Below are positions 23,767 to 38,826 of a stretch of 44,991 nt of DNA, in pieces; the first letter of the stretch is position 1; every line of letters begins with the position of its first letter. This stretch comes from a phage: the sequence record PZ379602.1; one strand, written 5' to 3'. Position numbers and translations under genes: made by a program. The notes under the pieces are model-generated. The model searched no databases. It saw nothing but the letters and a program-made list of their open reading frames with translations, and was not told the origin of the DNA.

Positions 23767-23812
23767 GTTTGCTATATGATATAATGCATCTCTAAACAAA
23801 GGAGGTAACAAA

Positions 23813-24337
23813 ATGAAAGACGAAAACTTCACCAGTCAGGCGCAAGAAAAGGTCCGCTCTGGCAACTTTAAAGCCATGTACAATAAAAAGTACTCAGACA
23901 TTACAACGCTAGCCAAAAACCGAAGCATGACACCCGAACAGCTATTTGAATTCGCCGTGAAATACTTCTCATGGGCTGAGGACCAGGCAATCAAGGCAAT
24001 CGAGACAGCCAGCTTCCAGGGTGTGGTAAAAGAGAGCCTGGTGCACAAACCACGAGTCTTCACGCTAACCGGATTCTGCCTTTACTGCGGTGTCACCCAT
24101 AGCGCCATCGAGAAATGGAGGAAGTCGGCTGGTTATGATGAGGTGATTGCGTTCATTGATTCCGTGATTCGCGAGCAGAAATACCAGCTTGCAGCATCTG
24201 GCATTGTTAACCCTGGCATGATTTCCAAGGAGCTTGGAATCGACAAACCGCAGGAGATCACTATAAGCAATAACTCTTCTGCTAACGACGTCGAAACGAT
24301 GAAGGAAGCTCTGGAGTCTGTGATTAGTAAGCTGTAA
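23813..24337 (+). CDS. terminase small subunit (by position)
   Basis: 174-aa ORF immediately upstream of the large terminase; strong RBS. Confidence 0.55.
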   Translation: MKDENFTSQAQEKVRSGNFKAMYNKKYSDITTLAKNRSMTPEQLFEFAVKYFSWAEDQAIKAIETASFQGVVKESLVHKPRVFTLTGFCLYCGVTHSAIEKWRKSAGYDEVIAFIDSVIREQKYQLAASGIVNPGMISKELGIDKPQEITISNNSSANDVETMKEALESVISKL

Positions 24338-24457
24338 TAACATGGGGTAGATTGGCGTGATCAAATTAATGAAGGCGTTATTGGTGTATTACATGATGGC
24401 AGCTACATGCTTCACAACTGGATTCTTAATTGGCGTGATGGTTGGATTGGTGAAATT

Positions 24458-26026
24458 ATGGCTAATTTAGTTTGGGAGGAAATGACGCCAGCAGAAAAGA
24501 TGGCGGTTAAGGCGATATCCACTCATAGCTTCGAGGGTTTCTTACGAGTGTGGTTCCAGCTTACCCAGGGAGAGCGATACATACCTAACTGGCACCATAG
24601 ATACCTTTGCAGAATTATCGATGAGATTATTGCTGGTGAGCGTAAGGACACAATCATTAACATCGCTCCTGGCAGTGGGAAGACAGAGATTGCCTCAATT
24701 CACTTCCCAGCCTACTCAATGGTTAAGTTGAGAAAGGTAAGGAACCTGAATATATCGTATGCTGACTCACTGGTTAAGCGTAACTCCAAGCGTGTGCGCG
24801 ACTTAATTAAGTCTGTTGAGTTCCAGGAGTTGTTCCCATGTAAGTTTGGTACGTGTAAGGATGATGAGCTACAGGTCCTGGATGACTATGGCAAGGTCAG
24901 GTTTGAGTCAATCTCTAAAGCCACTGGCGGCCAAATTACAGGCGCGAGGGGTGGATATATAACCGATTCGTATAGTGGTGCGGTACTGTTAGATGATTTT
25001 GACAAACCAGCCGACATGCTTTCTGCTGTTTTTCGCGCTAACAATCACGTGATGCTAAAGAATACAATACGCTCTCGTAGGGCGAGCTCCGTAAAAGGAA
25101 AGGCGACGCCGATTATCTCTATCCAACAGCGCCTTCATGTGAACGATAGTACGTGGTTCATGATGAATGGCGGTATGGGTATTAGCTTCGACTTGATTAA
25201 AATACCGGCGCTCGTAACTGAGGATTACGTCGACACGCTTCCTGACTGGATTAAGCAGCAATTCATTGATGACGTTCTATCAAGCGAATATATTGAGCGT
25301 GATGGTGTTAGGTACTATAGCTATTTCCCTGGCAAGGAATCTGTTCACGACCTAGTTGCAATGTGGGATTCTGATAGCTATACATTCCTTAGCCAGTATC
25401 AGCAAGAACCAGTAGCACTTGGCGGCAACCTGATTAACGTAGACTGGCTTCAACGCATTAGCGACACTCTGCGACCGCCAGCTAAGTACGATTACAGGTT
25501 TATGGTCCTTGATACTGCGATGACAACCAAAAGTTACAGCGACTTTAGCGTCATGCAGCTATGGGGTTATAAGGATGGGAAGATTTATCTGCTTGACCAG
25601 CGGCGCGGTAAATTTGAAGCTCCTGAGCTCGAGGCTGAGTTATTGGATTTCGAGAAGATGGCTAGGGCATCCAATCAGATAGATGGCATCCTTCGTAAAA
25701 TCATCATCGAGAAGAAAGCCTCTGGTATTGGCCTGATTCAATCAGCCGGAAGGGTTATGCGAACGCCTATCGAGCCGTACGTTCCGGATAACGATAAGCT
25801 GACTCGCGTAATGAGTGCATTGCCGCAGATTAAAGCTGGTAACGTAATCCTTCCGGAGTCTGCTACTTGGCTTAATGGCTTGCTAACGGAGATTGCGGCA
25901 TTCACGGCAGATGATTCACATGTTCACGATGACCAGATAGACTGTTTGACAATGGCTGTCAACCTGGTACTGAACATTGCAGAAGACCCTAAATCGAGGA
26001 TGATGCGCCTCGCTGGCATCAAATAG
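24458..26026 (+). CDS. terminase large subunit
   Basis: Walker A-like NIAPGSGKTEI; acidic nuclease-type C-terminal half; start at ATG 24458 (an alternative ATG exists at 24407). Confidence 0.85.
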   Translation: MANLVWEEMTPAEKMAVKAISTHSFEGFLRVWFQLTQGERYIPNWHHRYLCRIIDEIIAGERKDTIINIAPGSGKTEIASIHFPAYSMVKLRKVRNLNISYADSLVKRNSKRVRDLIKSVEFQELFPCKFGTCKDDELQVLDDYGKVRFESISKATGGQITGARGGYITDSYSGAVLLDDFDKPADMLSAVFRANNHVMLKNTIRSRRASSVKGKATPIISIQQRLHVNDSTWFMMNGGMGISFDLIKIPALVTEDYVDTLPDWIKQQFIDDVLSSEYIERDGVRYYSYFPGKESVHDLVAMWDSDSYTFLSQYQQEPVALGGNLINVDWLQRISDTLRPPAKYDYRFMVLDTAMTTKSYSDFSVMQLWGYKDGKIYLLDQRRGKFEAPELEAELLDFEKMARASNQIDGILRKIIIEKKASGIGLIQSAGRVMRTPIEPYVPDNDKLTRVMSALPQIKAGNVILPESATWLNGLLTEIAAFTADDSHVHDDQIDCLTMAVNLVLNIAEDPKSRMMRLAGIK

Positions 26027-26087
26027 CACGTTTTGCTAAAGACGCGCCGCCAAGGATGGCTTATAGTTACTTCACGCAAACGAGAGG
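26023..26087 (+). promoter_or_regulatory. promoter-like element (box ATAGCACGTTTTGCTAAA, hairpin GCCA...TGGC, TATAGT)
   Basis: Box overlaps the TAG stop of terminase; 23-bp spacing. Confidence 0.45.
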
Positions 26088-26095
26088 AGTAAAAA

Positions 26096-26449
26096 ATGAA
26101 AGCAGTATTTAAAGGGTATAAAAAAGCTGGTTATTTTGATTTTACCGTTGGTAAGATTTATGACTTATCAAGAACGCCTGGAAGTAATAATGAATACGTC
26201 AAAGTTAAGGATGATAAAGGCTATTTGGGCGTAATTAATCTTAGTGTTTATGATTTCGAAGTTATAGAGCCTACCGATTTTGTCGTTAAAGGTGATAATT
26301 TTAAAGTTGAAAAGGCTGGGATTAAATACTTCATCAACAAAGACATAGTAACTAAAGAGGCATTTTATGAAGTCAGAAGGGAGGTTCGCCAGTTAACACT
26401 TAATGGAGTGAAAACATCATCAATCAAGTTCGAAGTAAAATTCGAGTAA
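26096..26449 (+). CDS. hypothetical protein (117 aa), moron-like insert between terminase and portal
   Basis: Own promoter-like element upstream and own terminator downstream; Lys-rich. Confidence 0.55.
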   Translation: MKAVFKGYKKAGYFDFTVGKIYDLSRTPGSNNEYVKVKDDKGYLGVINLSVYDFEVIEPTDFVVKGDNFKVEKAGIKYFINKDIVTKEAFYEVRREVRQLTLNGVKTSSIKFEVKFE

Positions 26450-26471
26450 CCATAAAAGCTATGCTAAACTA

Positions 26472-26493
26472 AGCCCCTAAATGGGGCTTTTTA
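26472..26493 (+). terminator. rho-independent terminator
   Basis: Hairpin AGCCCC-taaat-GGGGCT followed by T5. Confidence 0.65.
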
Positions 26494-26507
26494 TTGGAGC
26501 AAATAAA

Positions 26508-27785
26508 ATGGTAAAAGCAGATTCATACGCCACGCAATTTCTTGGTGGCCCCAGTGATGGTAGCGAGATTTACGGGCACTTTGGCAACACGTATCTTACA
26601 CCTCCTTTCGCTGATTCACTGTACGCATCAAACTCAATTGTACGCCGCATCGTCGACACCATACCGGAGACAGCAATCGCCGCAGGTTTCCATATCGATG
26701 GTATTGATGACGAAGGTGAATTCTGGTCCAGGTGGGATTACCTGAAGGTTAACGAGTCAATCTCTGACGCATGGTCATGGGCGAGGTTATTTGGCGGCTC
26801 TGCAATTGTGGCTATCGTTAAGGACAATCGTGCGCTAACTAGCCCGGTACGTGAAGGCGCGGAACTTGAATCACTTCGCGTTTATGAGCGTAGCCAGGTA
26901 AGAGTTCAGACTAAGGAGGAAAACCCTCGCAATGTGCGATTCGGTAAGCCATTAACGTACCGCATCACGCCAGAAGGTGGCGCCATGTTTTATGATGTGC
27001 ACTACTCGCGAGTTCACATTATGGATGGCGAGAAGATTCCTAGTTCATTGCGTCGCGGTAATGACGGGTGGGGTGCTAGCGTTCTGGTTCCTGACCTGCT
27101 TGAATCAATCAAGGATTATCAGACGTGTGAGAAACTGGCAACTCAGTTATTGCGCCGCAAGCAGCAGGCGGTGTGGAAGGCTAAAGGCCTTGCTGAACTG
27201 TGTGACGACGCGGAAGGTTTTGGTGCGGCCAGGTTGAGGCTTGCTCAGGTTGATGATAACTCTGGCGTTGGTCGCGCGATTGGTATCGACGCTGAAGCTG
27301 AAGAGTACAGCGTTCTTAACTCGGATATTGGTGGGATTGATGGATTCCTCGATAAGAAGTTCGACAGAATTGTTGCTCTGAGCGGTATCCATGAAATCAT
27401 TCTCAAAGGTCGTAACGTTGGCGGGTTATCATCTAGCCAAAACACAGCGCTAGAGACATTCCATAAGTTGATTGACCGCAAGCGTAACGAAGAGCTACTT
27501 CCAGTTCTTGGGTTCTTAATCCCGTTCATCACAACCGAGCAAGAATGGTCAGTTGAGTTTAACCCTCTAGCTCAGGAATCGAAGAAAGACCGCGCTGAAA
27601 TACTGAAGAATAACGTTGATTCAATTACTGCTCTTATCACTAACGGCGTGATGGATGCAGACGAAGCACGAGATACCTTGCGCGCATTAGCCCCTGAGGT
27701 TAAGATTGGTGAAGGTTCAATTGAGACAGAGGTAACAATCAATGAAACCAGTGAAGACCCGCTGGAAGTACCCGCAGACAATTGA
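26508..27785 (+). CDS. portal protein
   Basis: 425-aa ORF between terminase and head morphogenesis genes. Confidence 0.75.
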   Translation: MVKADSYATQFLGGPSDGSEIYGHFGNTYLTPPFADSLYASNSIVRRIVDTIPETAIAAGFHIDGIDDEGEFWSRWDYLKVNESISDAWSWARLFGGSAIVAIVKDNRALTSPVREGAELESLRVYERSQVRVQTKEENPRNVRFGKPLTYRITPEGGAMFYDVHYSRVHIMDGEKIPSSLRRGNDGWGASVLVPDLLESIKDYQTCEKLATQLLRRKQQAVWKAKGLAELCDDAEGFGAARLRLAQVDDNSGVGRAIGIDAEAEEYSVLNSDIGGIDGFLDKKFDRIVALSGIHEIILKGRNVGGLSSSQNTALETFHKLIDRKRNEELLPVLGFLIPFITTEQEWSVEFNPLAQESKKDRAEILKNNVDSITALITNGVMDADEARDTLRALAPEVKIGEGSIETEVTINETSEDPLEVPADN

Positions 27786-28470
27786 GAATCAGGTAAACCG
27801 CAACCTTAGCGTTGCGGTAACTGAGCTAATATCTGCAATGAAAGAATCAGCTACGCGGCTTAAGATTGACACTGCCGAGGAGCTAGAGCAGGAAGATAAT
27901 TATCTCGACGCAATCATAGCAGCGCTTATAGCTTCTGTTGTAGCTACACTTCCGGCAATTGGAGCGTCAATATACAGGTATAATTCATCGCAGTTTCTTG
28001 TGCTGGCAATCAAGACTGGTGGCGGCTCGGTTCAGTCAGTTATGGACTTGAGACTTAACGGTATAAATGGAGATGAAGATTGGTATCAGCCGGATTTAAA
28101 CCAGTGGCTTTACACATCAAATAAGTCCGTTGAAAAGTTACTCAACAATATCAAGGACGACTTTATTCAGTCTGCATCAATCATACAGAGTGGTGACTAC
28201 CTTAAGATTAACGAAAGGTACAAGATTTACCGCAAGAGAACTGCTAATATAGCCTCAGGCATCACGTCCAGTATTAACTCTACGTTCATGCGCAGGAGGC
28301 TAGAGGATGCTGGTGTTACCCATTACATTTGGCACGGCATGCTTGATGAAAGGGAGCGAATGACCCATTTCAAGAAAGAGGGCCTAAGCTTCAGGTTGAG
28401 CGGTAACGATCTCTTCCCTGGTCAGGAATACGGCTGTCGTTGTTGGGCTGTGCCGGATTGGGAGTCATAA
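27742..28470 (+). CDS. head morphogenesis protein (Mu F / SPP1 gp7-like)
   Basis: C-terminal ...GQEYGCRCWAVPDWES resembles the conserved C-terminus of this family; overlaps the portal end. Confidence 0.7.
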   Translation: MKPVKTRWKYPQTIENQVNRNLSVAVTELISAMKESATRLKIDTAEELEQEDNYLDAIIAALIASVVATLPAIGASIYRYNSSQFLVLAIKTGGGSVQSVMDLRLNGINGDEDWYQPDLNQWLYTSNKSVEKLLNNIKDDFIQSASIIQSGDYLKINERYKIYRKRTANIASGITSSINSTFMRRRLEDAGVTHYIWHGMLDERERMTHFKKEGLSFRLSGNDLFPGQEYGCRCWAVPDWES

Positions 28471-28518
28471 CATGAGGATGAAAGATGAATTCGATGGATT
28501 TTAGTGAGGAGAATTGGG

Positions 28519-29625
28519 ATGTATAAGAATCGCTTTGATACAGCAACATTCAAAGCCACCATTGACGAGAATGGTTTTCTCGTCGATACGCCAGTAGTAG
28601 CAAGGGTTGGTGTGCAGGTTTATTTCACAGAGGACGGTTCGACTGTTCGAGAGTTCAGGCCAGCAGAAGAAGTCTTCAAAGAGGAGTCGCTAGCCAGTTA
28701 CCAGGGTAAGCCAATGACTCTTGACCACGTCTTTGTAAACTCCGATAACGCTAAAGACGTAGTGGTCGGCTCGGTAACTGGTAAAGCTGAGGCTCTAGGA
28801 AGTACGGTAATTGCGCCAATTGTCGTATACTCTCAAGAAGCTATTGACGAGGCTCGCTCAGGTAACGCTAAGGAATTATCTGTAGGTTACTCGGCAGTTC
28901 TTGATGAAACTCCAGGTTGGGGCGACCCGGCAACTGGTAAGTACATTCTTAGGACTGACAACACGCAGGGTTTGGATATACCCCCTGACTGGCAAGAGTT
29001 CGACGCAATCCAGAGAGACATTAAGGTAAACCATTTAGCTATGGTCTTCAGGGGTAGGGCTGGAATTGCTAAGCTAAATATGGACGGGCAGCAAGAAAAC
29101 CCGTATACTGACAACGTTGATTTAAATACTAAGGAAAACAAAATGACAGTTAAGATTAAGATTGACTCTGTTGAAGTTGAGGTGTCTAAAGAGGTTGCAG
29201 ACCACATCTCCAAAATTAACTCCGCTGTTGAAGCACAGAAAGCTAAGGTTGATTCCATCGAAGCTGAGCGTGACGCACTGAAAGCCAAAGTAGACGCAAT
29301 GCCCGCTGAAATCGAGAAAGCAGTCAAAGCTGCCAAAGCTGACGCTGAAGCACTTGCCGCTCTGGTTACTGTAGCCACTGAAGCTGGTGTTAAGACTGAT
29401 GGCCTGGATGCTAAAGGCATTAAGGTATTATACGTTAAAGAAGTTTCCGGCCTTGATGTTTCCGAGAAGTCCGACGCATACATCGATGCAGCGTTCGACA
29501 TTGCCAAAGATTCTGATAAAATGGCTGAAGTTCGCAAGGCAACCGCAGCTTCCGACAAATCTGATGCTGCCGACGCACCTAAGAAATTAGACCCGCGCAC
29601 TCGTTTAGCAAAAATTAAAAAGTAA
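28519..29625 (+). CDS. capsid scaffolding protein, possibly with protease function
   Basis: C-terminal half is Ala/Lys/Glu-rich coiled-coil-like; position between minor head and major capsid genes; GAGGAG RBS. Confidence 0.55.
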   Translation: MYKNRFDTATFKATIDENGFLVDTPVVARVGVQVYFTEDGSTVREFRPAEEVFKEESLASYQGKPMTLDHVFVNSDNAKDVVVGSVTGKAEALGSTVIAPIVVYSQEAIDEARSGNAKELSVGYSAVLDETPGWGDPATGKYILRTDNTQGLDIPPDWQEFDAIQRDIKVNHLAMVFRGRAGIAKLNMDGQQENPYTDNVDLNTKENKMTVKIKIDSVEVEVSKEVADHISKINSAVEAQKAKVDSIEAERDALKAKVDAMPAEIEKAVKAAKADAEALAALVTVATEAGVKTDGLDAKGIKVLYVKEVSGLDVSEKSDAYIDAAFDIAKDSDKMAEVRKATAASDKSDAADAPKKLDPRTRLAKIKK

Positions 29626-29636
29626 GGAGATAGATA

Positions 29637-30167
29637 ATGGCAATTCGTTCTGTAGCACTGGCAGGTATGGTGGCTGATACTTCCCTGTACAATATCGATG
29701 GCGCTTGTGTAGTTGGCGGTACTGCCGCCACACGTATCCCTGTTGGCACATTCGTGGGTGTTAGCACCGCTCAGCCTGTAGATGGTCACAAGGTTGTCGC
29801 CCTTCCAGCCGTATCAGGGACTGCAATTAAACCTTACGGTGTTGTTGTTCGTTCTCACTACGAGACTCCGGATGGTCAGGCTCGCGGCCTTGAAGCAGTT
29901 AACGTCATGACCTCTGGCCGTATTTGGGTTCGCACCACTCTGTCTGCGGCTCCGGCATTTGGCGATAAAGTTTACGTAAATGCTTCTGGTGTTGTGACAG
30001 CTAAAGCAGCTACTACAACTTGGGAAACTGGTTACAGGTTCGCTGGTGGTTTCCTTTCTGGTTACGTTCCCGGAAGCGACCATATCAAGCAAGGTGAGAG
30101 CTACGACGGCGCTCTGGTTGAAGTTCAATTGATTCAATCCGCAGATTCGGTATTAGCTACTGCTTAA
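29637..30167 (+). CDS. hypothetical head protein (176 aa)
   Basis: Gly/Val/Thr-rich ORF between scaffold and major capsid genes. Confidence 0.45.
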   Translation: MAIRSVALAGMVADTSLYNIDGACVVGGTAATRIPVGTFVGVSTAQPVDGHKVVALPAVSGTAIKPYGVVVRSHYETPDGQARGLEAVNVMTSGRIWVRTTLSAAPAFGDKVYVNASGVVTAKAATTTWETGYRFAGGFLSGYVPGSDHIKQGESYDGALVEVQLIQSADSVLATA

Positions 30168-30188
30168 CAATATTTGAATGCACGAATA

Positions 30189-30212
30189 AGCCTCCTTCGG
30201 GAGGTTTTTTGT
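30189..30212 (+). terminator. rho-independent terminator
   Basis: Hairpin CCTCC-ttcg-GGAGG followed by T6. Confidence 0.7.
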
Positions 30213-30318
30213 GTCTTTTGCCATCCAGATTTAAGCCTCATGTATGATGCTATTGTAACAACCACAAAGTCGTGTATAATTGACTCGTACATACCTAACT
30301 GAAAAGGAATAAACAAGA

Positions 30319-31259
30319 ATGGCCATTAAATTTGATGCAGAACAAGCAAAAATCACCGCTCACCTTGAGCAAATGGGTGTAGATAAAGCTGATGCTGCTG
30401 GTATCTGGACCGTCAAGCAGTTGACCGCCAACCTGGCGCGTGCGTACGAAGCAGAATATCCGGAAAACTCCGTAGTTAATATCTTCCCAGTAACTAACGA
30501 AATCCCGGCCCATGCAAAGTATTTTGAGTACCCTGAGTTTGACGGAACGGCAATCGCACAGATTATCGCTGATTACTCTGATGACCTTCCGCTGGTTGAT
30601 GCGTTCATGACCGAGAAGCAAGGCAAAGTTTTCCGTTTTGGTAACGCGTTCCTGATTTCCACCGACGAAATCAAAGCTGGCGCAGCAACTAGTCAGTCAC
30701 TGTCAGCTCGTAAACAGGCTTTGGCTTTTGAAGCTCATGACAACCTGCTCGATAAACTGGTATGGTCTGGCTCTGCACCGCACGGCATTCCTGGCGTATT
30801 CAATGCGCCGAACGTTAACCAGGTTGTTGCTGGTACTTGGAACTCCGCGGCTGCTGCTATGACTGATATCACAGCGCTTATCGATGCTATCGAAACAGCT
30901 ACCAATGGTGCTCACACCGCGACTGATATCCTGCTGCCTGCTTCCGCTCGCCGCCTGATGCAAGAACTGGTGCCGAACACCTCTATCAGCTACGCGCAGT
31001 TGTTTGCAACCAATAACTCCGGCATCACTCTGCGTTATCTGCAATTCCTGGATAACTACGACGGTGCTGGTGGCAAAGCTGCACTGGCATTTGAAAAAAT
31101 CCGCTCAACCTGAGTATTGAGATTCCGGAAGTGACGAACGTGCTACCTGGCCAGCCGAAGGATTTGCATTTCAAGTACCCGGTAACCTCTAAAGCGACGG
31201 GCTTGATCATCTATAGGCCGCTAACTGTATCAGTACTGAAGGGCATTACCTACGCCTAA
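30319..31259 (+). CDS. major capsid protein; ORF ends at 31113 but coding continues in the -1 frame to 31259
   Basis: 264-aa ORF after AAAAGGAAT RBS; about 50 more codons of protein-like sequence follow in the -1 frame after an A6 run 31094-31099, up to a TAA and terminator. Confidence 0.75.
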
Positions 31260-31265
31260 TAAATC

Positions 31266-31288
31266 GCCCTCTACGGAGGGCTTTTTTC
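31266..31288 (+). terminator. rho-independent terminator after the capsid gene
   Basis: Hairpin GCCCTC-tacg-GAGGGC followed by T6. Confidence 0.7.
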
Positions 31289-31351
31289 GCCTGTACCAAA
31301 ATGATATGATGGGTTATAATCAACCATCAATTAATAAAAGGAGAGCAATAA

Positions 31352-31597
31352 ATGATTCGTTTAGAACACACTGGCGCGTGCATGATTACCTTTCGTGGAG
31401 TGAATTACATGCCAGGTGAATTCATTGAGGTTGAGGAAATCAACGCTGGACTTAAAAGCCTCATTGCAGAAGGTCGCTTGCAGGTTGATGGAGACGCGAA
31501 GGCAACCAAAGAGATTATCGCAGAGGTTAAATCAAAATCTAAGCGCAAAGAACCGAAGACCATTGACGAAGCTCAGACTGGTCAGGAATATAAATAA
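31352..31597 (+). CDS. hypothetical protein (81 aa)
   Basis: ATG after AAAGGAGAG RBS. Confidence 0.45.
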   Translation: MIRLEHTGACMITFRGVNYMPGEFIEVEEINAGLKSLIAEGRLQVDGDAKATKEIIAEVKSKSKRKEPKTIDEAQTGQEYK

Positions 31598-31638
31598 CCA
31601 AATGGGCGCTTAGGCGTCCGTTTTTGTATGGAGGTTTT

Positions 31639-32034
31639 ATGAACGAACAAGCATTAGCCTTTATGAAGTCGCTGGTTCCTGCTCTTAAGAATATTCCAGA
31701 TGAAACGCTGGACGTATGGCTTGAGTTAGCTAAGCTATACATCTGCACCAGTAAGTTTGGTGATGATGCTTATAAAGCGCTGTCGCTATACACTCTGCAC
31801 ATTGCCTTTCTTGATGGCGCGCTTAAGCAGAATGAGTCGCTGGATGATTATGGCAAGAAGGTGGCAAGTTACTCCCTGAGCGGTGAATTTTCTATCAGCT
31901 ATGAATCCACCTCGCAAACTCAATCATCATTGACAGCTACGCCGTGGGGCCGACTTTACTGGAATCTCCTGCGCAAGAAAGGCGGCGGATTTGGCTTGAT
32001 TACGTCCGCTGGGCGTGAGTGCGGTTGCCAATGA
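31639..32034 (+). CDS. head-tail connector / adaptor protein (by position)
   Basis: 131-aa ORF with ATG after GGAGG RBS. Confidence 0.45.
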   Translation: MNEQALAFMKSLVPALKNIPDETLDVWLELAKLYICTSKFGDDAYKALSLYTLHIAFLDGALKQNESLDDYGKKVASYSLSGEFSISYESTSQTQSSLTATPWGRLYWNLLRKKGGGFGLITSAGRECGCQ

Positions 32035-32402
32035 ATTACTCCCAAGTAGAATCATTAATGCGCACGGGCATCAATATCTTTAGTGATGGCGATGGTACAT
32101 TCACGATGAATACTGGTAAAGGTGGTGTCGAAATTGTTGACGGCGTTGAGGTTCCTGTAGCTGGCGGCACTGCATTAATCAATGGGCTGGTGAGGGAGAT
32201 TAAAACCAGAGATATTGATGGCGAATATATCCAGTTTGGTGACAAGCGTGGAATTTTCACTTCTGAAGTCCCAATCTTGCAGGGCTACAGGATTATAGTT
32301 GACGATGAAACTTACACTGTAGTCGACCCGAGGCCAGTCAAACCAACAGGAACTATAGTGGCTTACAGACCAATTCTAAGGAGGGTTGCTACCTATGGCT
32401 AG
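32019..32402 (+). CDS. head closure / neck protein (by position)
   Basis: 127-aa ORF overlapping the upstream gene. Confidence 0.45.
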   Translation: MRLPMNYSQVESLMRTGINIFSDGDGTFTMNTGKGGVEIVDGVEVPVAGGTALINGLVREIKTRDIDGEYIQFGDKRGIFTSEVPILQGYRIIVDDETYTVVDPRPVKPTGTIVAYRPILRRVATYG

Positions 32403-32832
32403 AAATATTGGTGGGTTGGCTACATTTACGAATAGTATTGCTGATTGGATTGATAGAGCTGATGATAACTTCTCTGATATTGTTTCTGGCACTGTAATTA
32501 AGGCTGCTAACGCCATCGTTGATTTATCGCCTGTTGATACTGGTAGGTTTAAGGCTAACTGGCAGATTACAGCGAACTCCCCAGCCGCTCAGTCTCTGAA
32601 TGATTACGACAAAACAGGTGGAGATACAAAAAGGTATCTGGCAAGGCAAGCTCGAGCTGTGGCTAATTCACCAGCGACAAAGGTTATCTACATAACTAAC
32701 AGGCTTGATTACGCCTCTGACCTTGAGTATGGATCGTCACAACAAGCGCCAGCAGGTGTACTTGGTGTAGTCAATATCCGGCTTGGGCGTTACTTCGAAG
32801 AAGCCGTAGCTGAAGCAAGGAGTAAACGATAA
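32386..32832 (+). CDS. neck / tail-component protein (by position)
   Basis: 148-aa ORF overlapping the upstream gene. Confidence 0.45.
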   Translation: MLPMARNIGGLATFTNSIADWIDRADDNFSDIVSGTVIKAANAIVDLSPVDTGRFKANWQITANSPAAQSLNDYDKTGGDTKRYLARQARAVANSPATKVIYITNRLDYASDLEYGSSQQAPAGVLGVVNIRLGRYFEEAVAEARSKR

Positions 32833-33229
32833 TGCAGTATGAATTATCTTTGGCGGCAAGGAGGTTTGTGACTGATTTGGTTAAAACGTTTCCAGTCAGG
32901 TATCCAATCTCCTATGAAAACGTAGCCTTTTCCCCTCAAGAAATGGCGGCATGTGGCTGAAGTACGATTATACCGAGGCTGACACAGTAACCTATAGCTT
33001 GAGTCGCAAGTGTAAGTATTATGTTGGCATGGTTCAGGTATCTGTCTTTTTCTCACCAGGTGATGGTGTTGATAGTGCGAGGAGAATTGCTAATCAATTG
33101 GCAGAATCAATGCTTGATGGTACAATGCTTGACACAGGCTACATTTATGAGGGCGGAGTAGTTCACCCGGTAGTGAAGTCAAAATCTGGCTGGTTTATTC
33201 CAGTTCGTTTCTATGTTCGTCTTGACTAA
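32832..33229 (+). CDS. tail completion-like protein, apparently split by a frameshift near 32928-32950
   Basis: 42-codon ORF 32832..32960 and ORF 32951..33229 together give about 133 aa; T4 and C4 runs at 32928-32935 are candidate sites. Confidence 0.4.
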
Positions 33230-33239
33230 AAGGTTGCAA

Positions 33240-33725
33240 ATGAAAGAGTTCTTAAATTCTCTTTACGATTATCGCGATGGTCAAATCTTTCATAAAGGAG
33301 GTTCAAAGCCATGTGGGTATGGAAAGCCTAACGGATACATTCAAACTTACGTCTCAAAGACTGGTAAGAAGTATGTTCACAGGATTATTTGGACAATGCA
33401 TAATGGAGACATCCCAGAAGGCATGCAAATTGACCATTTAAATGGCAATAGGAGCGACAACCGCATTGAGAATTTAAGGTGCGCATCAGTAACTGAAAAT
33501 AGAAGAAATTCAGGAACGAAATATAGGTATCGTAGATTCCCTGGTGTTAATGGTGTAAACTACAATAAGCGCGATAATCTTTGGCATGCAATGATTTCTG
33601 ATAATGGCGTAGCTAAGAGCCTTGGTCATTACAAGTCATTTGTTAGTGCATGTGAAGCTAGAATTATCGCAGAAGTAAATCTTGGATACCACGTAAATCA
33701 CGCGATGCGTGATAGCGTATATTAA
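33240..33725 (+). CDS. free-standing HNH homing endonuclease with AP2-like DNA-binding domain
   Basis: HRIIWTMHNG...QIDHLNGNRSDNRIENLRCASVTENRRN is an HNH motif; C-terminal YRGV-like region; inserted between tail completion and major tail genes. Confidence 0.8.
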   Translation: MKEFLNSLYDYRDGQIFHKGGSKPCGYGKPNGYIQTYVSKTGKKYVHRIIWTMHNGDIPEGMQIDHLNGNRSDNRIENLRCASVTENRRNSGTKYRYRRFPGVNGVNYNKRDNLWHAMISDNGVAKSLGHYKSFVSACEARIIAEVNLGYHVNHAMRDSVY

Positions 33726-33734
33726 CTTAACTCT

Positions 33735-34412
33735 TTGAATTGGAGGTGTATTATTGCCCATCTCAGCAATGGCACTCAGGTCTTCGTAGAAGGCACTAGG
33801 GGAGCTGCTATCGACGTAACCGCAATTTCCAACGCGGTTAATCCTGTTTTAACTTTGTCCAGCGTTGCAGATATTGCACGCGGTGACTACCTGTTGTTTA
33901 CCAGCTCCGCTTCAACTCTGCTGGCTGATAAGCAAGTTCGCGTTACCGCAGTGTCTGGTTCAACCGTAACTGTTGAAGGTATTGACACCTCCAGCACCAC
34001 CAAGTTCCCGGCCGGTTTAACTGGTGAAGTGGTTAAGATTCTTAGCTGGTTTGAGGTTCCTTGCGTTCAGGACGTATCCACTGACGGCGGCGAACAGCAG
34101 TTCGTTAACTTCCAGTGTTTATCCGATGACCGTGAGCAACAGATTCCAACTTATAAATCTGCGGTAACTAATACCTACACTTTCGCGCACGAATACACCA
34201 ACCCGATATATCCGATTCTGCGTAACTATGACGAAGCTGGTACTGTTGTTGCTATCCGTCTGTTCGTACCTCGCGCTAGTGAGATGCGTCTTCAGTCTGG
34301 CACTATCGCTTTCAACGACACGCCGAGCATTGGTGTTAACGAAATCGAAACGGTATCCATTGCGGTATCTATTCGCGGCAGGCTGAGTTCTGTAGCTTCT
34401 GAACTGGCATAA
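33735..34412 (+). CDS. major tail protein (start codon uncertain)
   Basis: Thr/Ser/Val-rich 225-codon frame; no in-frame ATG near the GGAGG RBS at 33742-33746. Confidence 0.55.
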   Translation: MNWRCIIAHLSNGTQVFVEGTRGAAIDVTAISNAVNPVLTLSSVADIARGDYLLFTSSASTLLADKQVRVTAVSGSTVTVEGIDTSSTTKFPAGLTGEVVKILSWFEVPCVQDVSTDGGEQQFVNFQCLSDDREQQIPTYKSAVTNTYTFAHEYTNPIYPILRNYDEAGTVVAIRLFVPRASEMRLQSGTIAFNDTPSIGVNEIETVSIAVSIRGRLSSVASELA

Positions 34413-34418
34413 AAATTA

Positions 34419-34441
34419 ACCCTCTTCGGAGGGTTTTTTAT
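34419..34441 (+). terminator. rho-independent terminator after the major tail gene
   Basis: Hairpin ACCCTC-ttcg-GAGGGT followed by T6. Confidence 0.7.
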
Positions 34442-34443
34442 TG

Positions 34444-34505
34444 ATAGCACTTTTTGTTAAAGGCTAAGTCGCGGATTGCTGTATAGTTCATTCATCGAAA
34501 AGAAA
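34444..34505 (+). promoter_or_regulatory. modular promoter-like element inside the tail module (box ATAGCACTTTTTGTTAAA, TATAGT, CATCGAAAAGAAA)
   Basis: 22-bp spacing; leader box 5 nt after the hexamer. Confidence 0.5.
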
Positions 34506-34520
34506 TGAGAGATTAATGAA

Positions 34521-34769
34521 ATGAACAACGTTAAAAATATCATCAAACTTGCTGCTGCTCTTGGTGCTTTCTACCTGGCAATTCAGATTGTCAACCCAAC
34601 TGGTGGCGCAACCGCTAACTCTGATGCAATAAAGTATGAACATGAATTTAATAGTGCATATTCTCATTGTGAAAAAGTAGCTGGCGATAAGACAAATCAG
34701 ATTCTGCATTATGGTCGCGAGGTGTGCACCGAAGTTGCTCACAACATTGTAAAAAACGAATCAAAGTAA
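34521..34769 (+). CDS. small secreted protein with predicted signal peptide (82 aa), moron-like
   Basis: N-terminal hydrophobic segment IIKLAAALGAFYLAIQIV; own promoter-like element; located between the major tail and chaperone genes. Confidence 0.5.
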   Translation: MNNVKNIIKLAAALGAFYLAIQIVNPTGGATANSDAIKYEHEFNSAYSHCEKVAGDKTNQILHYGREVCTEVAHNIVKNESK

Positions 34770-34804
34770 TATAATCATTCAACACAAACAAAGGAGATAA
34801 CGAG

Positions 34805-35119
34805 ATGGCAAAATTTAAACTTTCACTTAAGGCGCTGCCTGACTTTAAACTTCCGGTTAAGTTTCAGTTAGCGAATGGTGAAGATGCAGAGGTGGTACTA
34901 ACAGTTAAGCACAAGAAATCATCTGAACTTCAGGAGATTCTTAATCGTGAAAACTTCAGCACTAAAGAATTGATTAACGAAATCTGCTCTGACTGGGATT
35001 TAGAAGAACCATTTAACGATGAGAACGTCGATGAGTTTGCAAACCTATTCCCAGGTGCAGTTCCATCATTGATGGATAGCTACATGAAAGCGCTGGCTGG
35101 GCAGCGAGTAAAAAACTAA
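34805..35119 (+). CDS. tail assembly chaperone (G-like)
   Basis: 104-aa acidic ORF immediately upstream of the tape measure gene, ending at a slippery sequence. Confidence 0.65.
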   Translation: MAKFKLSLKALPDFKLPVKFQLANGEDAEVVLTVKHKKSSELQEILNRENFSTKELINEICSDWDLEEPFNDENVDEFANLFPGAVPSLMDSYMKALAGQRVKN

Positions 35120-35433
35120 AACGCGCAGTATACTTACAATACCAGTCACCACCAACGGATGCCGAACTCGAAGCTATCGGAATGAAACGTTCCGATTATG
35201 AAGGTGATGAGCCTGAAGAGTTATACTTCGATGAAACAATGATGCAAAGCTGGGATGTGTACTGTGCCATGTCAACTCAATGGCGAGTAGGGGCTTGCGG
35301 TGCCACAGGCCTTGATTATAATTGCCTTCCATTCTTGTTCAAAGTCTATAAAATAGATGATGACGAAATGGTACTTAACGACATCAGAATACTTGAGGCT
35401 AAAGCCTTAGATATGATGAACGCCAAGAAATAG
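34805..35433 (+). CDS. tail assembly chaperone frameshift product (GT-like), via -1 programmed frameshift
   Basis: Heptamer A AAA AAC at 35110-35116 in the zero frame; the -1 frame is open from there through ORF 35182..35433. Confidence 0.55.
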
Positions 35434-35456
35434 CCATCCTTCGGGGTGGCTTTTTT
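35433..35456 (+). terminator. rho-independent terminator
   Basis: Stem GCCATCC / GGGTGGC (one G-U) with ttcg loop, followed by T6. Confidence 0.6.
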
Positions 35457-35470
35457 ATTATGGAGACAAC

Positions 35471-38443
35471 ATGGCAACTAACGAAATTGCTGGTATCACG
35501 CTAGCCGTCGACGTAGCTCAGGTCGATAAGGGTACGCAATCCTTACAGAAATTCAGGCAAGCAAACGAGCAAGCTGCAACAGGCATTAATAGCTTCGTCA
35601 ACGCCGAACTTGTAGCCAAGACTCAAGCAAGGGACACTGCAAGGCAGCTTGAGGAGCAGCGCAAATCTTTCGCATCACTTCAGCAAGCCATAGACCCAAC
35701 CGCTGCTAAATTCCTGAAGTTGCAGAAAGCAGCAACAGATTTGGACAAAGCATTTGAATCCGGGATAGTTCCTGATGATGAATTCTTCAGGCTTGGCTCT
35801 GTTATTGAAACTCAAATCAATAAGCTAAACAGGTCTAAAGCCGCTCTTAGCGAAGAAGGCAGGGCTGCACTACAGGCATCAATAGATAAAGAGAAAGCAA
35901 CAACAGCAGCACAAAAGTTCATTCAATCTCTTGAGAACGAGGCGAATGCAGCAAGCCTGACAAGGACTGAACTTCTTCAGCTTAAGGCTGCTCAGCTAGG
36001 AGTTAGTGACCAGGCTGCACCGATTATCGACAGGATTGGAAAGGCTGCCGAGGCATCTGCGGTACAATTGCAGAAGCAAAGCTCCGCTTTTGTTAAGTCT
36101 GGGCTTAGTGCCGGTCAATACAAGCAAGCAATTCGACAGCTTCCAGTGCAGATTACAGATATCGGAACCTCTCTAGCTGGTGGTATCCCAATCTGGCTAA
36201 TTGCAATTCAGCAGGGTGGGCAGATTAAGGATAGCTTTGGTGGTATTGCTAACACCGCAAGGTTCGCACTGGCAGCCATTAACCCATTAACGGCAGTTGT
36301 TGGGACTTTGGGCTTGGCCCTCGGCGCTCTTGGTGTTGCTGCTTATCAGGCTGACAAGAACACTCGCGGACTAGCATCAACGATAACATTGGTTGGCAAC
36401 TCAACTATCACGTCGACAGCGCAGATAAATCAGGTTGTTGATGGAATTGAGAGTTCAACACTAGCCACGCGCGGACTTATCCAGGAGATAGCTAACAGCC
36501 TGGTAGCAAACGGTAATCTGACTCTTACGCAGATAGATAAGATAACCAAGGCGACAGCACAATGGGCAACTGTAACATCAACAGACTCGAAAACTATTCT
36601 TGGATACTTTGATCAGATTACAAAGGACCCAATTCAAGGTCTGATTGCACTCGATAAGCAGTTCAACTTCCTTCAGTCTGGGCAATTGAAATACATTGAG
36701 AATATCAGGAAGACGGCTGGAGAAACAGAGGCTGTAACCGCAGCTACTGAGCTATTCGCTAACGTTATGGAAAACAGGCTAGCAGACGTAGCACTAAGCC
36801 TTAACCCTCTTGAGAGCGCATGGAATAGCTTCAGGAAGTTTGTAAGTGAGATTTGGGATGATATAAGCAAAAGGACGCTTGGGGCGCTTAACTTAATAAC
36901 TGACGTTGTTGCTGGGACTATTGAGCAGATAAGGTCGTTAATAAACTCCGGTGATATCCTATTGGGCGAGTTTGCAATAGCAGCAACCAAGACACTTCAG
37001 TCAATACCTGGACTTGGCGATTTAGGCAATGAAGCAATCGCTGAGCAGCAAAAGATTGTTGATGCAGCTAAGAAGCAAAATGAGGAGTTAGCAAAAAGCA
37101 TAGCTGAGCGAGATGCGAGAATCAGGAAGGGTGAGCTTGGTTATGTCGAGAACAACAATAACACCAACCTTAGCGGAAATAATGCATCAACCGATAAGGA
37201 GTTTGCAGCAAGGAAGAAGGCTCTTGCCGATGAGTATGATGCGATAAAGAAAGCAGGGAGTGAGAGGAAAAAGGCTGTAAAAGAAGAAAGGGATTTAACT
37301 TTATCTTATGAATCTGGCGTTCTTGCACTTCAGGCTCAGTTAAAGGTCTTACAAGAGCACAGAACGATAAATGATGTAATAAGCAATGAAAGAAAGCAGT
37401 TATTCCAGGAAGAAGCGAAGTTTGCAATACTTGAACAAAGACAAGCGGATGGTACGCTTACAAAATCACAGGCTAAGCTACTTGCGCAGAAGAATATCAT
37501 TCTTGAACAGGCTAAACAGAAGGCTGAACTTGGTGACCAGATTGTGCTTCAGGAGAGGTCAAACAAGTTACTTGATGACAACCTTAAGAAGACTGTGCAG
37601 ATTACAAATGAAGCAAATAATTTTTCACTTGCTGCTAATTTATCTGACAGGGAGAAGCAAAGAGCAAAAGAGCTTCAGGCACTTCAATCCAATCAGGTAA
37701 ACAAAGGTGGTTCTGTAGATGATACTGATTTTCAGGCATTACTAGAAGCCAGGCGTAATTTCTATGCTCAAGAGGATGCGCTACGTGAAAACTGGCTTGC
37801 TGGTGTGCAATCATCCTTCGCTAATTGGGCAGAGAGCGCGACAGATGCATTCTCTATCGCTGGTGAATTGACCACTTCCGTCTTTACCGGAATTACCGAG
37901 CAGATCACCAGCCTTGTAACAACTGGCACGGCAGACTTCAGGAGTTTTACCGTTGAGATCCTGAAACAGATTGCCAGGATTGCGACTCAACTCTTAATTG
38001 TTAAGGCCATTGAGTCAAGTCTGAGTAGTTTTGGTGGTACTGGCGGCGCTATTGGTTCAATTGGTAGTGCGCTTGGTTTTGCTGGCGGAGGTTATACTGG
38101 TGATGGCGGGAAATATCAACCTGCTGGGACTGTTCACCGTGGTGAGTTTGTATTCACAAAAGAGGCTACAAGCAGGATTGGTGTTAAGAATCTGTACAAG
38201 CTGATGCGCGGTTATGCAAATGGAGGTGCTGTTGGTGGGCCATCTGGTTATGCTAATGGTGGGGTTGTCGGCGGTACTAATGTCAGTGTTGGTGGTGTGA
38301 CGGTTAACGTAAACTCTGGAATCGGTGGCGGAAATGATGCTAAGGCGATAGAATCTGGAGTTAAGGTTATCGTGGCTGAGGAAATCAGCAAATCATTCCA
38401 ACAGGGTGGCAGAGCGTATCAGTTCTTGCGCGGTTACAACTAA
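35471..38443 (+). CDS. tail tape measure protein
   Basis: 990 aa; long Ala/Gln/Lys-rich helical N-terminal part and Gly-rich C-terminal region; position after the chaperones. Confidence 0.9.
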   Translation: MATNEIAGITLAVDVAQVDKGTQSLQKFRQANEQAATGINSFVNAELVAKTQARDTARQLEEQRKSFASLQQAIDPTAAKFLKLQKAATDLDKAFESGIVPDDEFFRLGSVIETQINKLNRSKAALSEEGRAALQASIDKEKATTAAQKFIQSLENEANAASLTRTELLQLKAAQLGVSDQAAPIIDRIGKAAEASAVQLQKQSSAFVKSGLSAGQYKQAIRQLPVQITDIGTSLAGGIPIWLIAIQQGGQIKDSFGGIANTARFALAAINPLTAVVGTLGLALGALGVAAYQADKNTRGLASTITLVGNSTITSTAQINQVVDGIESSTLATRGLIQEIANSLVANGNLTLTQIDKITKATAQWATVTSTDSKTILGYFDQITKDPIQGLIALDKQFNFLQSGQLKYIENIRKTAGETEAVTAATELFANVMENRLADVALSLNPLESAWNSFRKFVSEIWDDISKRTLGALNLITDVVAGTIEQIRSLINSGDILLGEFAIAATKTLQSIPGLGDLGNEAIAEQQKIVDAAKKQNEELAKSIAERDARIRKGELGYVENNNNTNLSGNNASTDKEFAARKKALADEYDAIKKAGSERKKAVKEERDLTLSYESGVLALQAQLKVLQEHRTINDVISNERKQLFQEEAKFAILEQRQADGTLTKSQAKLLAQKNIILEQAKQKAELGDQIVLQERSNKLLDDNLKKTVQITNEANNFSLAANLSDREKQRAKELQALQSNQVNKGGSVDDTDFQALLEARRNFYAQEDALRENWLAGVQSSFANWAESATDAFSIAGELTTSVFTGITEQITSLVTTGTADFRSFTVEILKQIARIATQLLIVKAIESSLSSFGGTGGAIGSIGSALGFAGGGYTGDGGKYQPAGTVHRGEFVFTKEATSRIGVKNLYKLMRGYANGGAVGGPSGYANGGVVGGTNVSVGGVTVNVNSGIGGGNDAKAIESGVKVIVAEEISKSFQQGGRAYQFLRGYN

Positions 38444-38822: not shown

Positions 38823-38826
38823 ACTA

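What the first reader, a model, noticed from the sequence alone, without database searches (positions are those of the whole stretch)
30319..31259. Major capsid gene: stop at 31113 but about 50 further codons of capsid-like sequence in the -1 frame
The ORF ends ...ALAFEKIRST, yet the -1 frame from the A6 run continues as NPLNLSIEIPEVTNVLPGQPKDLHFKYPVTSKATGLIIYRPLTVSVLKGITYA up to a TAA and a terminator. Either there is a one-base undercall or two capsid isoforms are made by slippage on the A-run. A wrong capsid C-terminus would mislead structural or proteomic work.
Basis: seen in the sequence. Interest (0 to 1): 0.55.

Follow-up and report, generated by a model that had tools for sequence, protein, structure and literature searches.

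The report
Capsid gene split by one-base miscall
The phage's major capsid gene looks broken only because the sequence is one A short in a run of A's; with that base restored it is an ordinary, fully conserved 313-residue capsid protein, so no recoding or second isoform is involved.

Summary
ORF 30319-31113 (264 aa) stops at TGA 31111-31113, and from the A6 run (31094-31099) the -1 frame continues as capsid sequence to TAA 31257-31259, followed by a terminator.

It is not recoding. The window is an Rtp/T1-like coliphage (Drexlerviridae, Braunvirinae). All 8 relatives aligned by hand, 80 of 80 IMG/VR loci and nearly all of the 120 best protein clusters encode this protein as one ORF of 313-323 aa.

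The closest relative is 96.4% identical over 18.6 kb. It has identical flanks and A7 where the window has A6. Most other relatives interrupt the run with G, so no slippery site is conserved.

The 53 "extra" codons are the most conserved part of the HK97-fold protein and hold six core beta-strands. Their substitutions are about 90% at third codon positions.

The same window has other one-base frame breaks in conserved genes (tail terminator, helicase, two others), whereas two control genomes have none confirmed. The window's real tail-chaperone frameshift site is strictly conserved.

Verdict: most likely a one-base undercall, or less likely a real deletion in defective DNA. The gene should be read as 30319-31259 with one A added. 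Interest is low.

The parts
30253..30280 (+). Sigma-70-like promoter candidate (TTGTAA, 16 nt, TATAAT) upstream of the capsid gene
   Evidence: Consensus scan, 10 of 12 matches. This is a pattern match only; function was not tested.
30304..30309 (+). Shine-Dalgarno-like AAGGAA, 9 nt before the ATG
   Evidence: Read directly from the sequence.
30319..31098 (+). Major capsid protein, codons 1-260 (M1...E259 K260), window frame 1
   Evidence: ORF list. PF09950 match. 98% aa identity to phiA2-1 GP04 residues 1-260.
31094..31099 (+). A6 homopolymer, the site where the window is one base short. Relatives have A7, or the same 7 positions interrupted by G.
   Evidence: Alignments with L008 (GAAAAAAATCC), IMM-001 (A7), phiA2-1 (GAAAAGAAT), ES, TR2, EcG8, Rtp and L009. 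In 76 IMG/VR loci where the site could be located, the run is 5 or shorter in 75 and 7 in one.
31099..31113 (+). Spurious out-of-frame tail (I R S T + TGA) created by the missing base
   Evidence: No homolog ends this way.
31098..31259 (+). Major capsid protein, codons 261-313 (NPLNLS...GITYA) plus TAA, window frame 3 (-1 relative to the 5' part). Contiguous with the 5' part once one A is added.
   Evidence: tblastn of phiA2-1 GP04 residues 260-313 at 94%. One difference in 54 codons against L008. Against phiA2-1, 22 of 25 substitutions are at third codon positions; against IMM-001, 23 of 25. 20 of 69 invariant alignment columns lie in this segment. It holds six of the predicted beta-strands, at pLDDT 78-88.
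31266..31288 (+). Intrinsic terminator (6-bp GC-rich stem, 4-nt loop, T6), 7 nt after the TAA of the extended ORF
   Evidence: Terminator scan. It lies after the long ORF, not after the TGA at 31113. Its T-run is T7 in L008 and L009 and T6 in the window.

Best explanation
The capsid gene is a single ordinary gene of 313 codons, running from ATG 30319 to TAA 31259, and it encodes an HK97-fold major capsid protein of the Drexlerviridae type (PF09950). The window's sequence is one A short in a homopolymer: A6 at 31094-31099 where the true sequence is most likely A7. That puts the last 53 codons into the apparent -1 frame and creates a false stop four codons later. The most likely cause is a base-calling, consensus or assembly undercall. 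The phage is then expected to make one capsid protein of about 33.75 kDa and no 28.4 kDa isoform. The repair, the conservation and the other broken genes are shown by tool results. That the missing base is an artefact rather than a real deletion in the DNA is inferred.
For: 1. The closest relative found is Logan contig DRR232302_252 (L008), 96.4% nt identity over 18.6 kb in one HSP. It reads CTGGCATTTGAAAAAAATCCG where the window reads CTGGCATTTGAAAAAATCCG. IMM-001 also has A7.
2. Inserting one A gives a 942-nt ORF whose product is 97% identical to the phiA2-1 and IMM-001 proteins, 92% to EcG8 and 81% to Rtp over its full length.
3. All relatives encode one ORF:
- 8 of 8 aligned genomes or contigs.
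- 80 of 80 IMG/VR loci, each with a single HSP and ORFs of 313-323 aa.
- 118 of the 120 best protein clusters are 310-318 aa. The exceptions are one fragment on an 892-nt contig and one 426-aa protein.
4. The extension evolves as coding sequence in that frame: 21 synonymous against 3 nonsynonymous codon changes versus phiA2-1, and 22 against 1 versus IMM-001.
5. The extension is structurally indispensable:
- Pfam coverage rises from 170/251 to 251/251 profile positions.
- 20 of 69 invariant columns lie in the last 54 residues.
- The AlphaFold model places strands 266-269, 272-276, 280-282, 285-294, 297-299 and 305-311 there.
- The model matches the cryo-EM capsids of T1 (9kzj) and FCWL1 (9kmg) over about 295 columns.
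- The fused sequence aligns end to end with the 314-aa ZL19 capsid protein in PDB 9n01.
6. The terminator follows the long ORF.
7. The same window has other one-base frame breaks in conserved genes, with high identity on both sides:
- tail terminator at 32933 (100% and 94% aa identity on the two sides);
- helicase at 7286 (A5 to A4), 9009 (C6 to C5), 9290 and 9559;
- a 377-aa gene at about 11996;
- a DUF6453 gene at about 44725.
The same test on phiA2-1 and TR2 returned 0-3 hits per query genome, which I judged to come from non-coding-strand ORFs or divergent short ORFs rather than broken genes.
8. Positive control: the window's real -1 frameshift site in the tail assembly chaperone gene (A_AAA_AAC TAA, 35110-35119) is strictly conserved in 5 of 5 relatives, down to 49.5% protein identity. 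The capsid A-run is not conserved.
Against: No reads are available, so an artefact cannot be told apart from a real deletion in the sequenced DNA. The window is not grossly error-ridden: 143 of 144 aligned runs of length 4-6 agree with L008, while 2 of 3 runs of length 7 are shorter in the window. Some of the other frame breaks (9290 insertion, 32933, 9559) are not in long homopolymers, so the error profile is not purely a homopolymer undercall. Capsid frameshifting at lysine codons does exist in some T7-like phages (PMC2579914), so the idea was not unreasonable beforehand.
Confidence: 0.85

Rival explanations
1. The one-base deletion is real in the DNA that was sequenced. The genome, or the dominant template in the sample, would be a defective variant or decaying copy whose capsid gene is a pseudogene. 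It could be a non-viable genome carried in a mixed population or a metagenomic assembly.
For: A7 runs are natural hot spots for replication slippage. Several other genes in the window are also frame-broken, as expected for a decaying copy. The source of the window is unknown: its exact sequence was not found in IMG/VR, JGI metagenomes or GTDB genomes.
Against: Apart from the single-base indels the genes look pristine. There is one substitution in the last 54 capsid codons against L008 and strongly synonymous divergence against the others, and the tail terminator is 100% and 94% identical on either side of its break. There are no in-frame stops and no larger deletions. Drexlerviridae are generally regarded as virulent phages (general knowledge, not checked here), which leaves no obvious way for a defective copy to persist. 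At least two virion genes expected to be essential, plus the helicase, would all have to be dead at once.
Confidence: 0.1
2. Programmed -1 ribosomal frameshifting on the A-run makes two capsid isoforms, 264 aa and 313 aa, as in gene 10A/10B of T7-like phages.
For: The geometry resembles 10A/10B: a -1 shift near the 3' end, an extension of about 50 aa, and a lysine-codon A-run. T3 and phiYeO3-12 are reported to frameshift at lysyl residues (PMC2579914). E. coli tRNA-Lys is slippery on A-runs (general knowledge).
Against: The 0-frame reads GAA AAA ATC, so there is no X_XXY_YYZ heptamer. The split architecture occurs in none of the relatives examined and the A-run is not conserved. The downstream RNA folds no better than shuffles (z = 0.16). 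The short product would be an incomplete HK97 fold, not a complete capsid protein with an optional appendage. A few percent frameshifting could not supply a capsid protein needed in hundreds of copies per virion (inference).
Confidence: 0.02
3. The DNA really has A6, and RNA polymerase slippage on the A/T run adds an A to a fraction of transcripts, restoring the frame.
For: Transcriptional slippage on homopolymer runs is a known bacterial and phage recoding mechanism (general knowledge).
Against: Efficient slippage is described for runs of about 8-9 or more (general knowledge), and this run is only 6. The comparative arguments against ribosomal frameshifting apply here too.
Confidence: 0.02

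Closest known systems
Major capsid protein of Drexlerviridae (T1 gp47, Rtp27, phiEB49 gp52, ZL19 MCP; Pfam PF09950; PDB 9kzj T1 capsid, 9kmg FCWL1 capsid, 9n01 ZL19 MCP bound to Avs7)
   Same: The repaired 313-aa protein is 81-98% identical to the proteins of Rtp-like phages (Rtp 81%, Logan cluster P0001 98%). It matches PF09950 over the whole profile and aligns 1-313 to the 314-aa chain of 9n01. It sits in the same gene order: protease, decoration-like protein, capsid protein, DUF7444 protein.
   Different: Nothing apart from the missing A in the window's sequence.
Homopolymer-indel gene fragmentation in phage and other small-genome assemblies
   Same: A one-base length error in a homopolymer splits a conserved gene into two adjacent ORFs in different frames. 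Published phage assembly work reports such frameshift errors, often in homopolymer regions, for example a DNA polymerase split into three annotations (PMC10438801). Tools such as Homopolish (PMC8011154) and Kastor (PMC12007338) exist to fix them; I saw only their abstracts.
   Different: The sequencing platform and the reads for this window are unknown, so the artefact is inferred by comparison and not demonstrated.
Capsid gene 10A/10B -1 programmed frameshift of T7-like phages (Condron et al. 1991, cited in PMC2579914)
   Same: A -1 shift near the 3' end of the capsid gene, giving a longer product with about 50 extra residues.
   Different: According to PMC2579914 the system has a slippery site and a downstream stem-loop or pseudoknot, and the frameshift product 10B is the minor form. 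From general knowledge, 10A is a complete capsid protein and the extension is dispensable. Here the extension is the conserved core of the fold, relatives have one ORF, and no slip site or structure is conserved.
Tail assembly chaperone -1 programmed frameshift of long-tailed phages (the lambda G/GT type; general knowledge)
   Same: A true -1 frameshift of this type is present in the same window: A_AAA_AAC at 35110-35116, directly before TAA, with the -1 frame continuing into the DUF1799-like ORF.
   Different: That site is a canonical heptamer and is strictly conserved in all five relatives checked. The capsid A-run is neither.

Membership tests
Sequencing/assembly single-base indel artefact | The break lies in a homopolymer or low-complexity run | tested here: met
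   A6 run at 31094-31099.
Sequencing/assembly single-base indel artefact | Closest relatives have the run one base longer with otherwise identical flanks | tested here: met
   L008 and IMM-001 have A7. The flanks of L008 are identical.
Sequencing/assembly single-base indel artefact | Adding one base restores a full-length ORF collinear with homologs, with no other change needed | tested here: met
   The repaired ORF is 942 nt and 313 aa, 97% identical to the phiA2-1 and IMM-001 proteins.
Sequencing/assembly single-base indel artefact | Other conserved genes in the same assembly carry similar frame breaks, while comparable genomes do not | tested here: met
   The window has 6-7 breaks per query genome. 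phiA2-1 and TR2 gave 0-3 hits per query genome, judged spurious. Individual breaks confirmed.
Sequencing/assembly single-base indel artefact | Read-level evidence (pile-up or Sanger) shows the longer run | not testable with these tools
   No reads are available, and the window's record could not be identified.
Programmed -1 ribosomal frameshift (capsid 10A/10B type) | Slippery heptamer X_XXY_YYZ in the 0 frame | tested here: not met
   The 0 frame is TTT GAA AAA ATC. Only a single AAA-to-AAA P-site slip is possible.
Programmed -1 ribosomal frameshift (capsid 10A/10B type) | Slip site and two-ORF architecture conserved among relatives | tested here: not met
   None of the 8 aligned relatives and none of the 80 IMG/VR loci is split. 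The run is interrupted by G in most. Contrast: the tail-chaperone site is conserved in 5 of 5.
Programmed -1 ribosomal frameshift (capsid 10A/10B type) | Downstream stimulatory RNA structure | tested here: not met
   MFE -18.9 kcal/mol against a shuffle mean of -19.4, z = 0.16. Pseudoknots were not modelled.
Programmed -1 ribosomal frameshift (capsid 10A/10B type) | The short (0-frame) product is a complete, functional capsid protein | tested here: not met
   The 264-aa ORF covers only 170 of 251 Pfam positions and lacks six predicted core strands and 20 invariant residues.
Programmed -1 ribosomal frameshift (capsid 10A/10B type) | Both products detected in virions | not testable with these tools
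   Needs SDS-PAGE or mass spectrometry.
Transcriptional slippage recoding | Long A or T run (about 8-9 or more) conserved at the frame junction | tested here: not met
   The run is A6 and is not conserved. The length threshold comes from general knowledge.
PF09950 / HK97-fold major capsid protein of Drexlerviridae | Pfam match above the gathering score over the whole profile | tested here: met
   125.3 bits against a cutoff of 26.8, profile positions 3-251 of 251, for the fused protein.
PF09950 / HK97-fold major capsid protein of Drexlerviridae | HK97 fold and close similarity to solved capsid proteins of the family | tested here: met
   phmmer E = 5e-173 to 9n01 chain C over the full length. 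The Foldseek top hits of the model built on the 98%-identical homolog P0001 are the FCWL1 and T1 capsids.
PF09950 / HK97-fold major capsid protein of Drexlerviridae | Conserved head-module gene order | tested here: met
   Portal, Mu-F-like, Pa193_gp24-type protease/scaffold, cement protein, capsid protein and DUF7444 protein occur in that order in L008 and L009, and the window is collinear with them.

The most novel reading that the evidence does not exclude
The A6 allele is real in a viable phage, and the essential full-length capsid protein is made by unusually efficient -1 slippage of tRNA-Lys (or RNA polymerase) on a short, non-canonical GAA_AAA_A site. That would be a recently arisen frameshift mutation rescued by recoding, and it would yield a truncated 28.4 kDa by-product.
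Probability: 0.03. Interest if true: 0.6.

Novelty: not a real feature. Interest (0 to 1): 0.08.

Why it matters
The value is practical. The capsid gene of this genome should be annotated as one 313-codon gene (30319-31259, with one A restored), not as a 264-aa protein plus an orphan ORF. A truncated entry would give a wrong mass (28.4 instead of 33.75 kDa). It would also miss the tryptic peptides NPLNLSIEIPEVTNVLPGQPK, DLHFK, YPVTSK, ATGLIIYRPLTVSVLK and GITYA, and remove the most conserved part of the fold from structural or phylogenetic work. Capsid proteins of Drexlerviridae are also the ligands sensed by the Avs7 and Dsr1 defence proteins (bioRxiv 10.64898/2026.01.04.697583), so accurate sequences matter there too. 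The finding also flags the whole window as carrying several single-base frame errors, so other split genes in it should not be over-interpreted.

Tried and rejected
- The exact 264-aa product is not on record in the gene-position collection, so the source record and its platform could not be identified.
- A degenerate pattern scan of IMG/VR for the A6/A7 site returned 17 loci, none of them capsid homologs. These were chance matches.
- Exact scans for the A6 version in IMG/VR, JGI metagenomes and GTDB genomes, and for the A7 version in JGI metagenomes and GTDB genomes, found nothing. This is uninformative beyond showing that no independent assembly carries the A6 allele.
- An RNA fold of 31090-31190 looking for a frameshift stimulator showed nothing beyond shuffles.
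- TR2's annotation lists "major capsid protein" twice, which suggested a similarly split gene. The second entry is the major tail protein, misnamed, and TR2's capsid gene is intact at 945 nt.
- The tail comparison with phage ES is out of register because of an indel, and was ignored.
- Several frame-break hits come from non-coding-strand ORFs and were not counted as gene breaks.

Full report
**Observation**

- An ORF starts at ATG 30319, preceded by AAGGAA at 30304-30309 and a TTGTAA-16-TATAAT promoter-like site at 30253-30280.
- It reads ...GCA TTT GAA AAA ATC CGC TCA ACC TGA and ends at 31113 (264 aa, ...ALAFEKIRST).
- The run 31094-31099 is A6.
- Re-reading A31098 gives AAT CCG CTC AAC..., that is NPLNLSIEIPEVTNV...KGITYA, up to TAA 31257-31259.
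- Seven bases later comes a GC-rich hairpin (31266-31281) followed by T6.
- So the transcription unit is built around the long reading frame, not around the TGA at 31113.

**What the gene is**

The 264-aa ORF matches Pfam PF09950 (Major_capside) over profile positions 3-170 of 251. The fused 313-aa sequence matches positions 3-251 of 251, with the score rising from 93 to 125 bits.

The window belongs to the Rtp/T1-like coliphages (Drexlerviridae, Braunvirinae). 91 phage records match the region, led by phiA2-1 at 92.4% and IMM-001 at 91.2% nucleotide identity.

In phiA2-1, IMM-001, vB_Ec-G8, Rtp, ES and TR2 the homolog is annotated as one CDS of 942-945 nt. Their proteins align with the fused window sequence end to end at 97, 97, 92 and 81% identity for the first four.

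The fused sequence also aligns 1-313 with the 314-aa capsid protein in PDB 9n01 (E = 5e-173). That entry is the ZL19 (Drexlerviridae) capsid protein bound to the Avs7 defence sensor (bioRxiv 10.64898/2026.01.04.697583).

**The site itself**

| Sequence | Bases at the site |
|---|---|
| Window | TTTGAAAAAATCC (A6) |
| L008 (Logan DRR232302_252) | TTTGAAAAAAATCC (A7) |
| IMM-001 | TTTGAAAAAAATCC (A7) |
| phiA2-1 | GAAAAGAAT |
| ES | GAAAAAGAC |
| TR2 | GAAAAGGAT |
| EcG8 | GAGAAGGAT |
| L009 | GAGAAGAAC |
| Rtp | GAGAAGAGT |

- L008 is the closest relative found, at 96.4% identity over window 22604-41252 in a single HSP, and its flanks at the site are identical to the window's.
- All the relatives are in frame.
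- In 80 IMG/VR loci encoding relatives, every one gives a single-frame tblastn match and an ORF of 313-323 aa.
- The longest A-run at the site is 5 or shorter in 75 of the 76 loci where the site could be located, and 7 in one.
- Of the 120 best protein clusters in the 5.8-billion-protein collection, 118 are 310-318 aa. The two exceptions are a 261-aa fragment on an 892-nt contig and a 426-aa Vibrio phage protein.
- So the window is simply one A short, and no slippery run is conserved.

**Is the extension dispensable?**

No.
- Against phiA2-1, 22 of 25 substitutions in the last 54 codons fall at third codon positions of the -1 frame (21 synonymous, 3 nonsynonymous codon changes).
- Against IMM-001 the figures are 23 of 25 (22 to 1). 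Against L008 there is a single difference.
- In a 46-sequence alignment reaching down to 52% identity, 20 of the 69 invariant columns lie in the last 54 residues.
- An AlphaFold2 model was built on the 98%-identical homolog P0001 (mean pLDDT 73.5). It places six beta-strands there (266-269, 272-276, 280-282, 285-294, 297-299, 305-311) at pLDDT 78-88.
- The model's best structural matches are the cryo-EM capsids of phages FCWL1 and T1, followed by other HK97-fold shells.
- A 264-aa product would therefore be an incomplete fold, unlike T7 10A.

**Tests for programmed recoding**

- The 0-frame codons GAA AAA ATC contain no X_XXY_YYZ heptamer. Only a single-tRNA AAA-to-AAA slip is conceivable.
- The 101 nt from the site fold at -18.9 kcal/mol against -19.4 +/- 3.1 for shuffles (z = 0.16).
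- A built-in positive control exists in the same window. The tail assembly chaperone gene ends ...CGA GTA AAA AAC TAA. It carries the canonical heptamer A_AAA_AAC at 35110-35116, and the -1 frame continues into the DUF1799-like ORF.
- That GTAAAAAACTAA string is identical in phiA2-1, ES, TR2, L008 and L009, even though the L009 chaperone is only 49.5% identical in protein.
- A real programmed frameshift in this phage group is thus visibly conserved, and the capsid A-run is not.

**The window has other frame breaks**

tblastn of phiA2-1 proteins against the window shows frame switches in four genes. An ORF-versus-genome screen gives 6-7 breaks in the window per query genome. The same screen on phiA2-1 and TR2 gave 0-3 hits per query genome, which I judged to come from non-coding-strand or divergent short ORFs rather than broken genes.

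Confirmed cases:

| Gene | Position of break | Detail |
|---|---|---|
| Tail terminator (PF13554) | 32933 | Split into 32832-32960 and 32951-33229; 100% and 94% aa identity to L008 on the two sides |
| Helicase | 7286, 9009, 9290, 9559 | A5 to A4; C6 to C5; an insertion; GGG to GG. The gene falls into six ORFs, whereas its C-terminal part is one 569-aa ORF in phage ES |
| 377-aa gene | about 11996 | Split into two ORFs |
| DUF6453 gene (minus strand) | about 44725 | Frame switch |
| Small ORF 10545-10781 | 10737 | A6 to A5 |

- Against L008, the uncompensated single-base differences are all deletions in the window: A7 to A6 in the capsid gene, T7 to T6 in its terminator, 32933, and TTT to TT at 38444.
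- The window is not grossly bad. 143 of 144 runs of length 4-6 agree with L008, while 2 of 3 runs of length 7 are shorter.
- Frameshift errors, often in homopolymer regions, that split essential genes are a documented problem of phage assemblies (PMC10438801).

**Conclusion**

The best explanation (about 0.85) is a one-base undercall or consensus error. The true gene is 30319-31259 with A7, encoding one 313-aa, 33.75 kDa capsid protein.

- A real deletion in defective DNA cannot be excluded without reads (about 0.10). It fits poorly with otherwise pristine coding sequence and with several genes expected to be essential being broken at the same time.
- Programmed ribosomal or transcriptional slippage making two isoforms is unlikely (a few percent together). 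The precedent in T7-like phages (PMC2579914) differs in every testable respect.
- Trypsin cleaves after K260. The diagnostic peptide for the full-length protein is therefore NPLNLSIEIPEVTNVLPGQPK, and the truncated form would give only IR and ST.

**What led nowhere**

- The exact 264-aa product is not on record.
- Exact-sequence scans of IMG/VR, JGI metagenomes and GTDB genomes for the A6 or A7 context found nothing.
- A degenerate pattern scan gave only chance matches.

**Side observation**

The helicase gene carries a split-intein arrangement. In phage ES, which lacks the window's extra indels, there are three ORFs:
- ORF1: N-extein plus an intein N-terminal part of about 121 aa (CLTGDTM...TSTH).
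- ORF2: an overlapping 284-aa LAGLIDADG endonuclease ORF in another frame.
- ORF3: an intein C-terminal part (...VVAHN|C) plus the C-extein.

The same three-ORF layout, with the same frame relationship, occurs in Pectobacterium phage Abuela at only 42-52% protein identity. Both reading frames are conserved in the overlap. phiA2-1 and TR2 have an uninterrupted 664-aa helicase. This resembles the "fractured genes" of Dassa et al. 2009 (PMC2677866) and probably deserves its own look.

Noticed in passing
window 6713-9845 (+); compare L006 30372-33506 and L108 1884-4994: The helicase gene is interrupted at its DExH motif by an intein-like element that appears to be split. The N-extein plus an intein N-part (CLTGDTM...TSTH) end in a stop. 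A 284-aa LAGLIDADG endonuclease ORF (7350-8204, PF03161) lies in another frame and overlaps both neighbours. A third ORF starts with an intein C-part (...VVAHN|C) followed by the rest of the helicase. The same three-ORF, same-frame layout is conserved in Pectobacterium phage Abuela at 42-52% aa identity, with both frames conserved in the overlap. It looks like a 'fractured gene' with a natural split intein (Dassa 2009, PMC2677866). phiA2-1 and TR2 have an uninterrupted 664-aa helicase.
   Followed up: partly
window 7286, 9009, 9290, 9559: Four further single-base indels relative to phage ES (A5 to A4, C6 to C5, one insertion, GGG to GG). They chop the helicase into six ORFs in the window, whereas its C-terminal part is one 569-aa ORF in ES.
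   Followed up: yes
window 32832-33229 (+), break at about 32933: The tail terminator gene (PF13554) is split into 42-aa and 92-aa ORFs by a one-base deletion. It is 100% and 94% identical to the intact 132-aa protein of L008 on the two sides. This is a second virion gene broken in the same way as the capsid gene.
   Followed up: yes
window 11465-12600 (+), break at about 11980-12010: The homolog of a 377-378-aa conserved gene (phiA2-1 GP44; 'DNA binding protein' in TR2; weak Metallophos_2 match) is split into two ORFs in different frames near a TTTT GGGGG stretch.
   Followed up: partly
window 44443-44855 (-), break at about 44715-44727; also 10737: The DUF6453-family gene on the minus strand changes frame at an A-run (GAAAA-ACAA against GAAAAGACAA in ES). 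The small ORF 10545-10781 has A5 where ES has A6 near its 3' end.
   Followed up: partly
window 35110-35119 (+): A canonical -1 programmed frameshift site of the tail assembly chaperone pair: A_AAA_AAC directly before TAA, with the -1 frame continuing into the DUF1799-like ORF (to about 35421). GTAAAAAACTAA is identical in all five relatives checked, including one with only 49.5% protein identity.
   Followed up: yes
window 33240-33707 (+): An HNH endonuclease ORF (PF13392 in L008's gene calls) is inserted between the tail terminator and major tail protein genes. It is present in L008 but absent at this position in phiA2-1, ES and TR2. phiA2-1 has related endonucleases elsewhere. It is probably a mobile homing endonuclease.
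   Followed up: no
window 31282-31287; 38444: The T-tail of the capsid-gene terminator is T6 in the window and T7 in L008 and L009. TT against TTT after the tape-measure gene. These are further single-base shortenings at runs, in non-coding DNA.
   Followed up: partly
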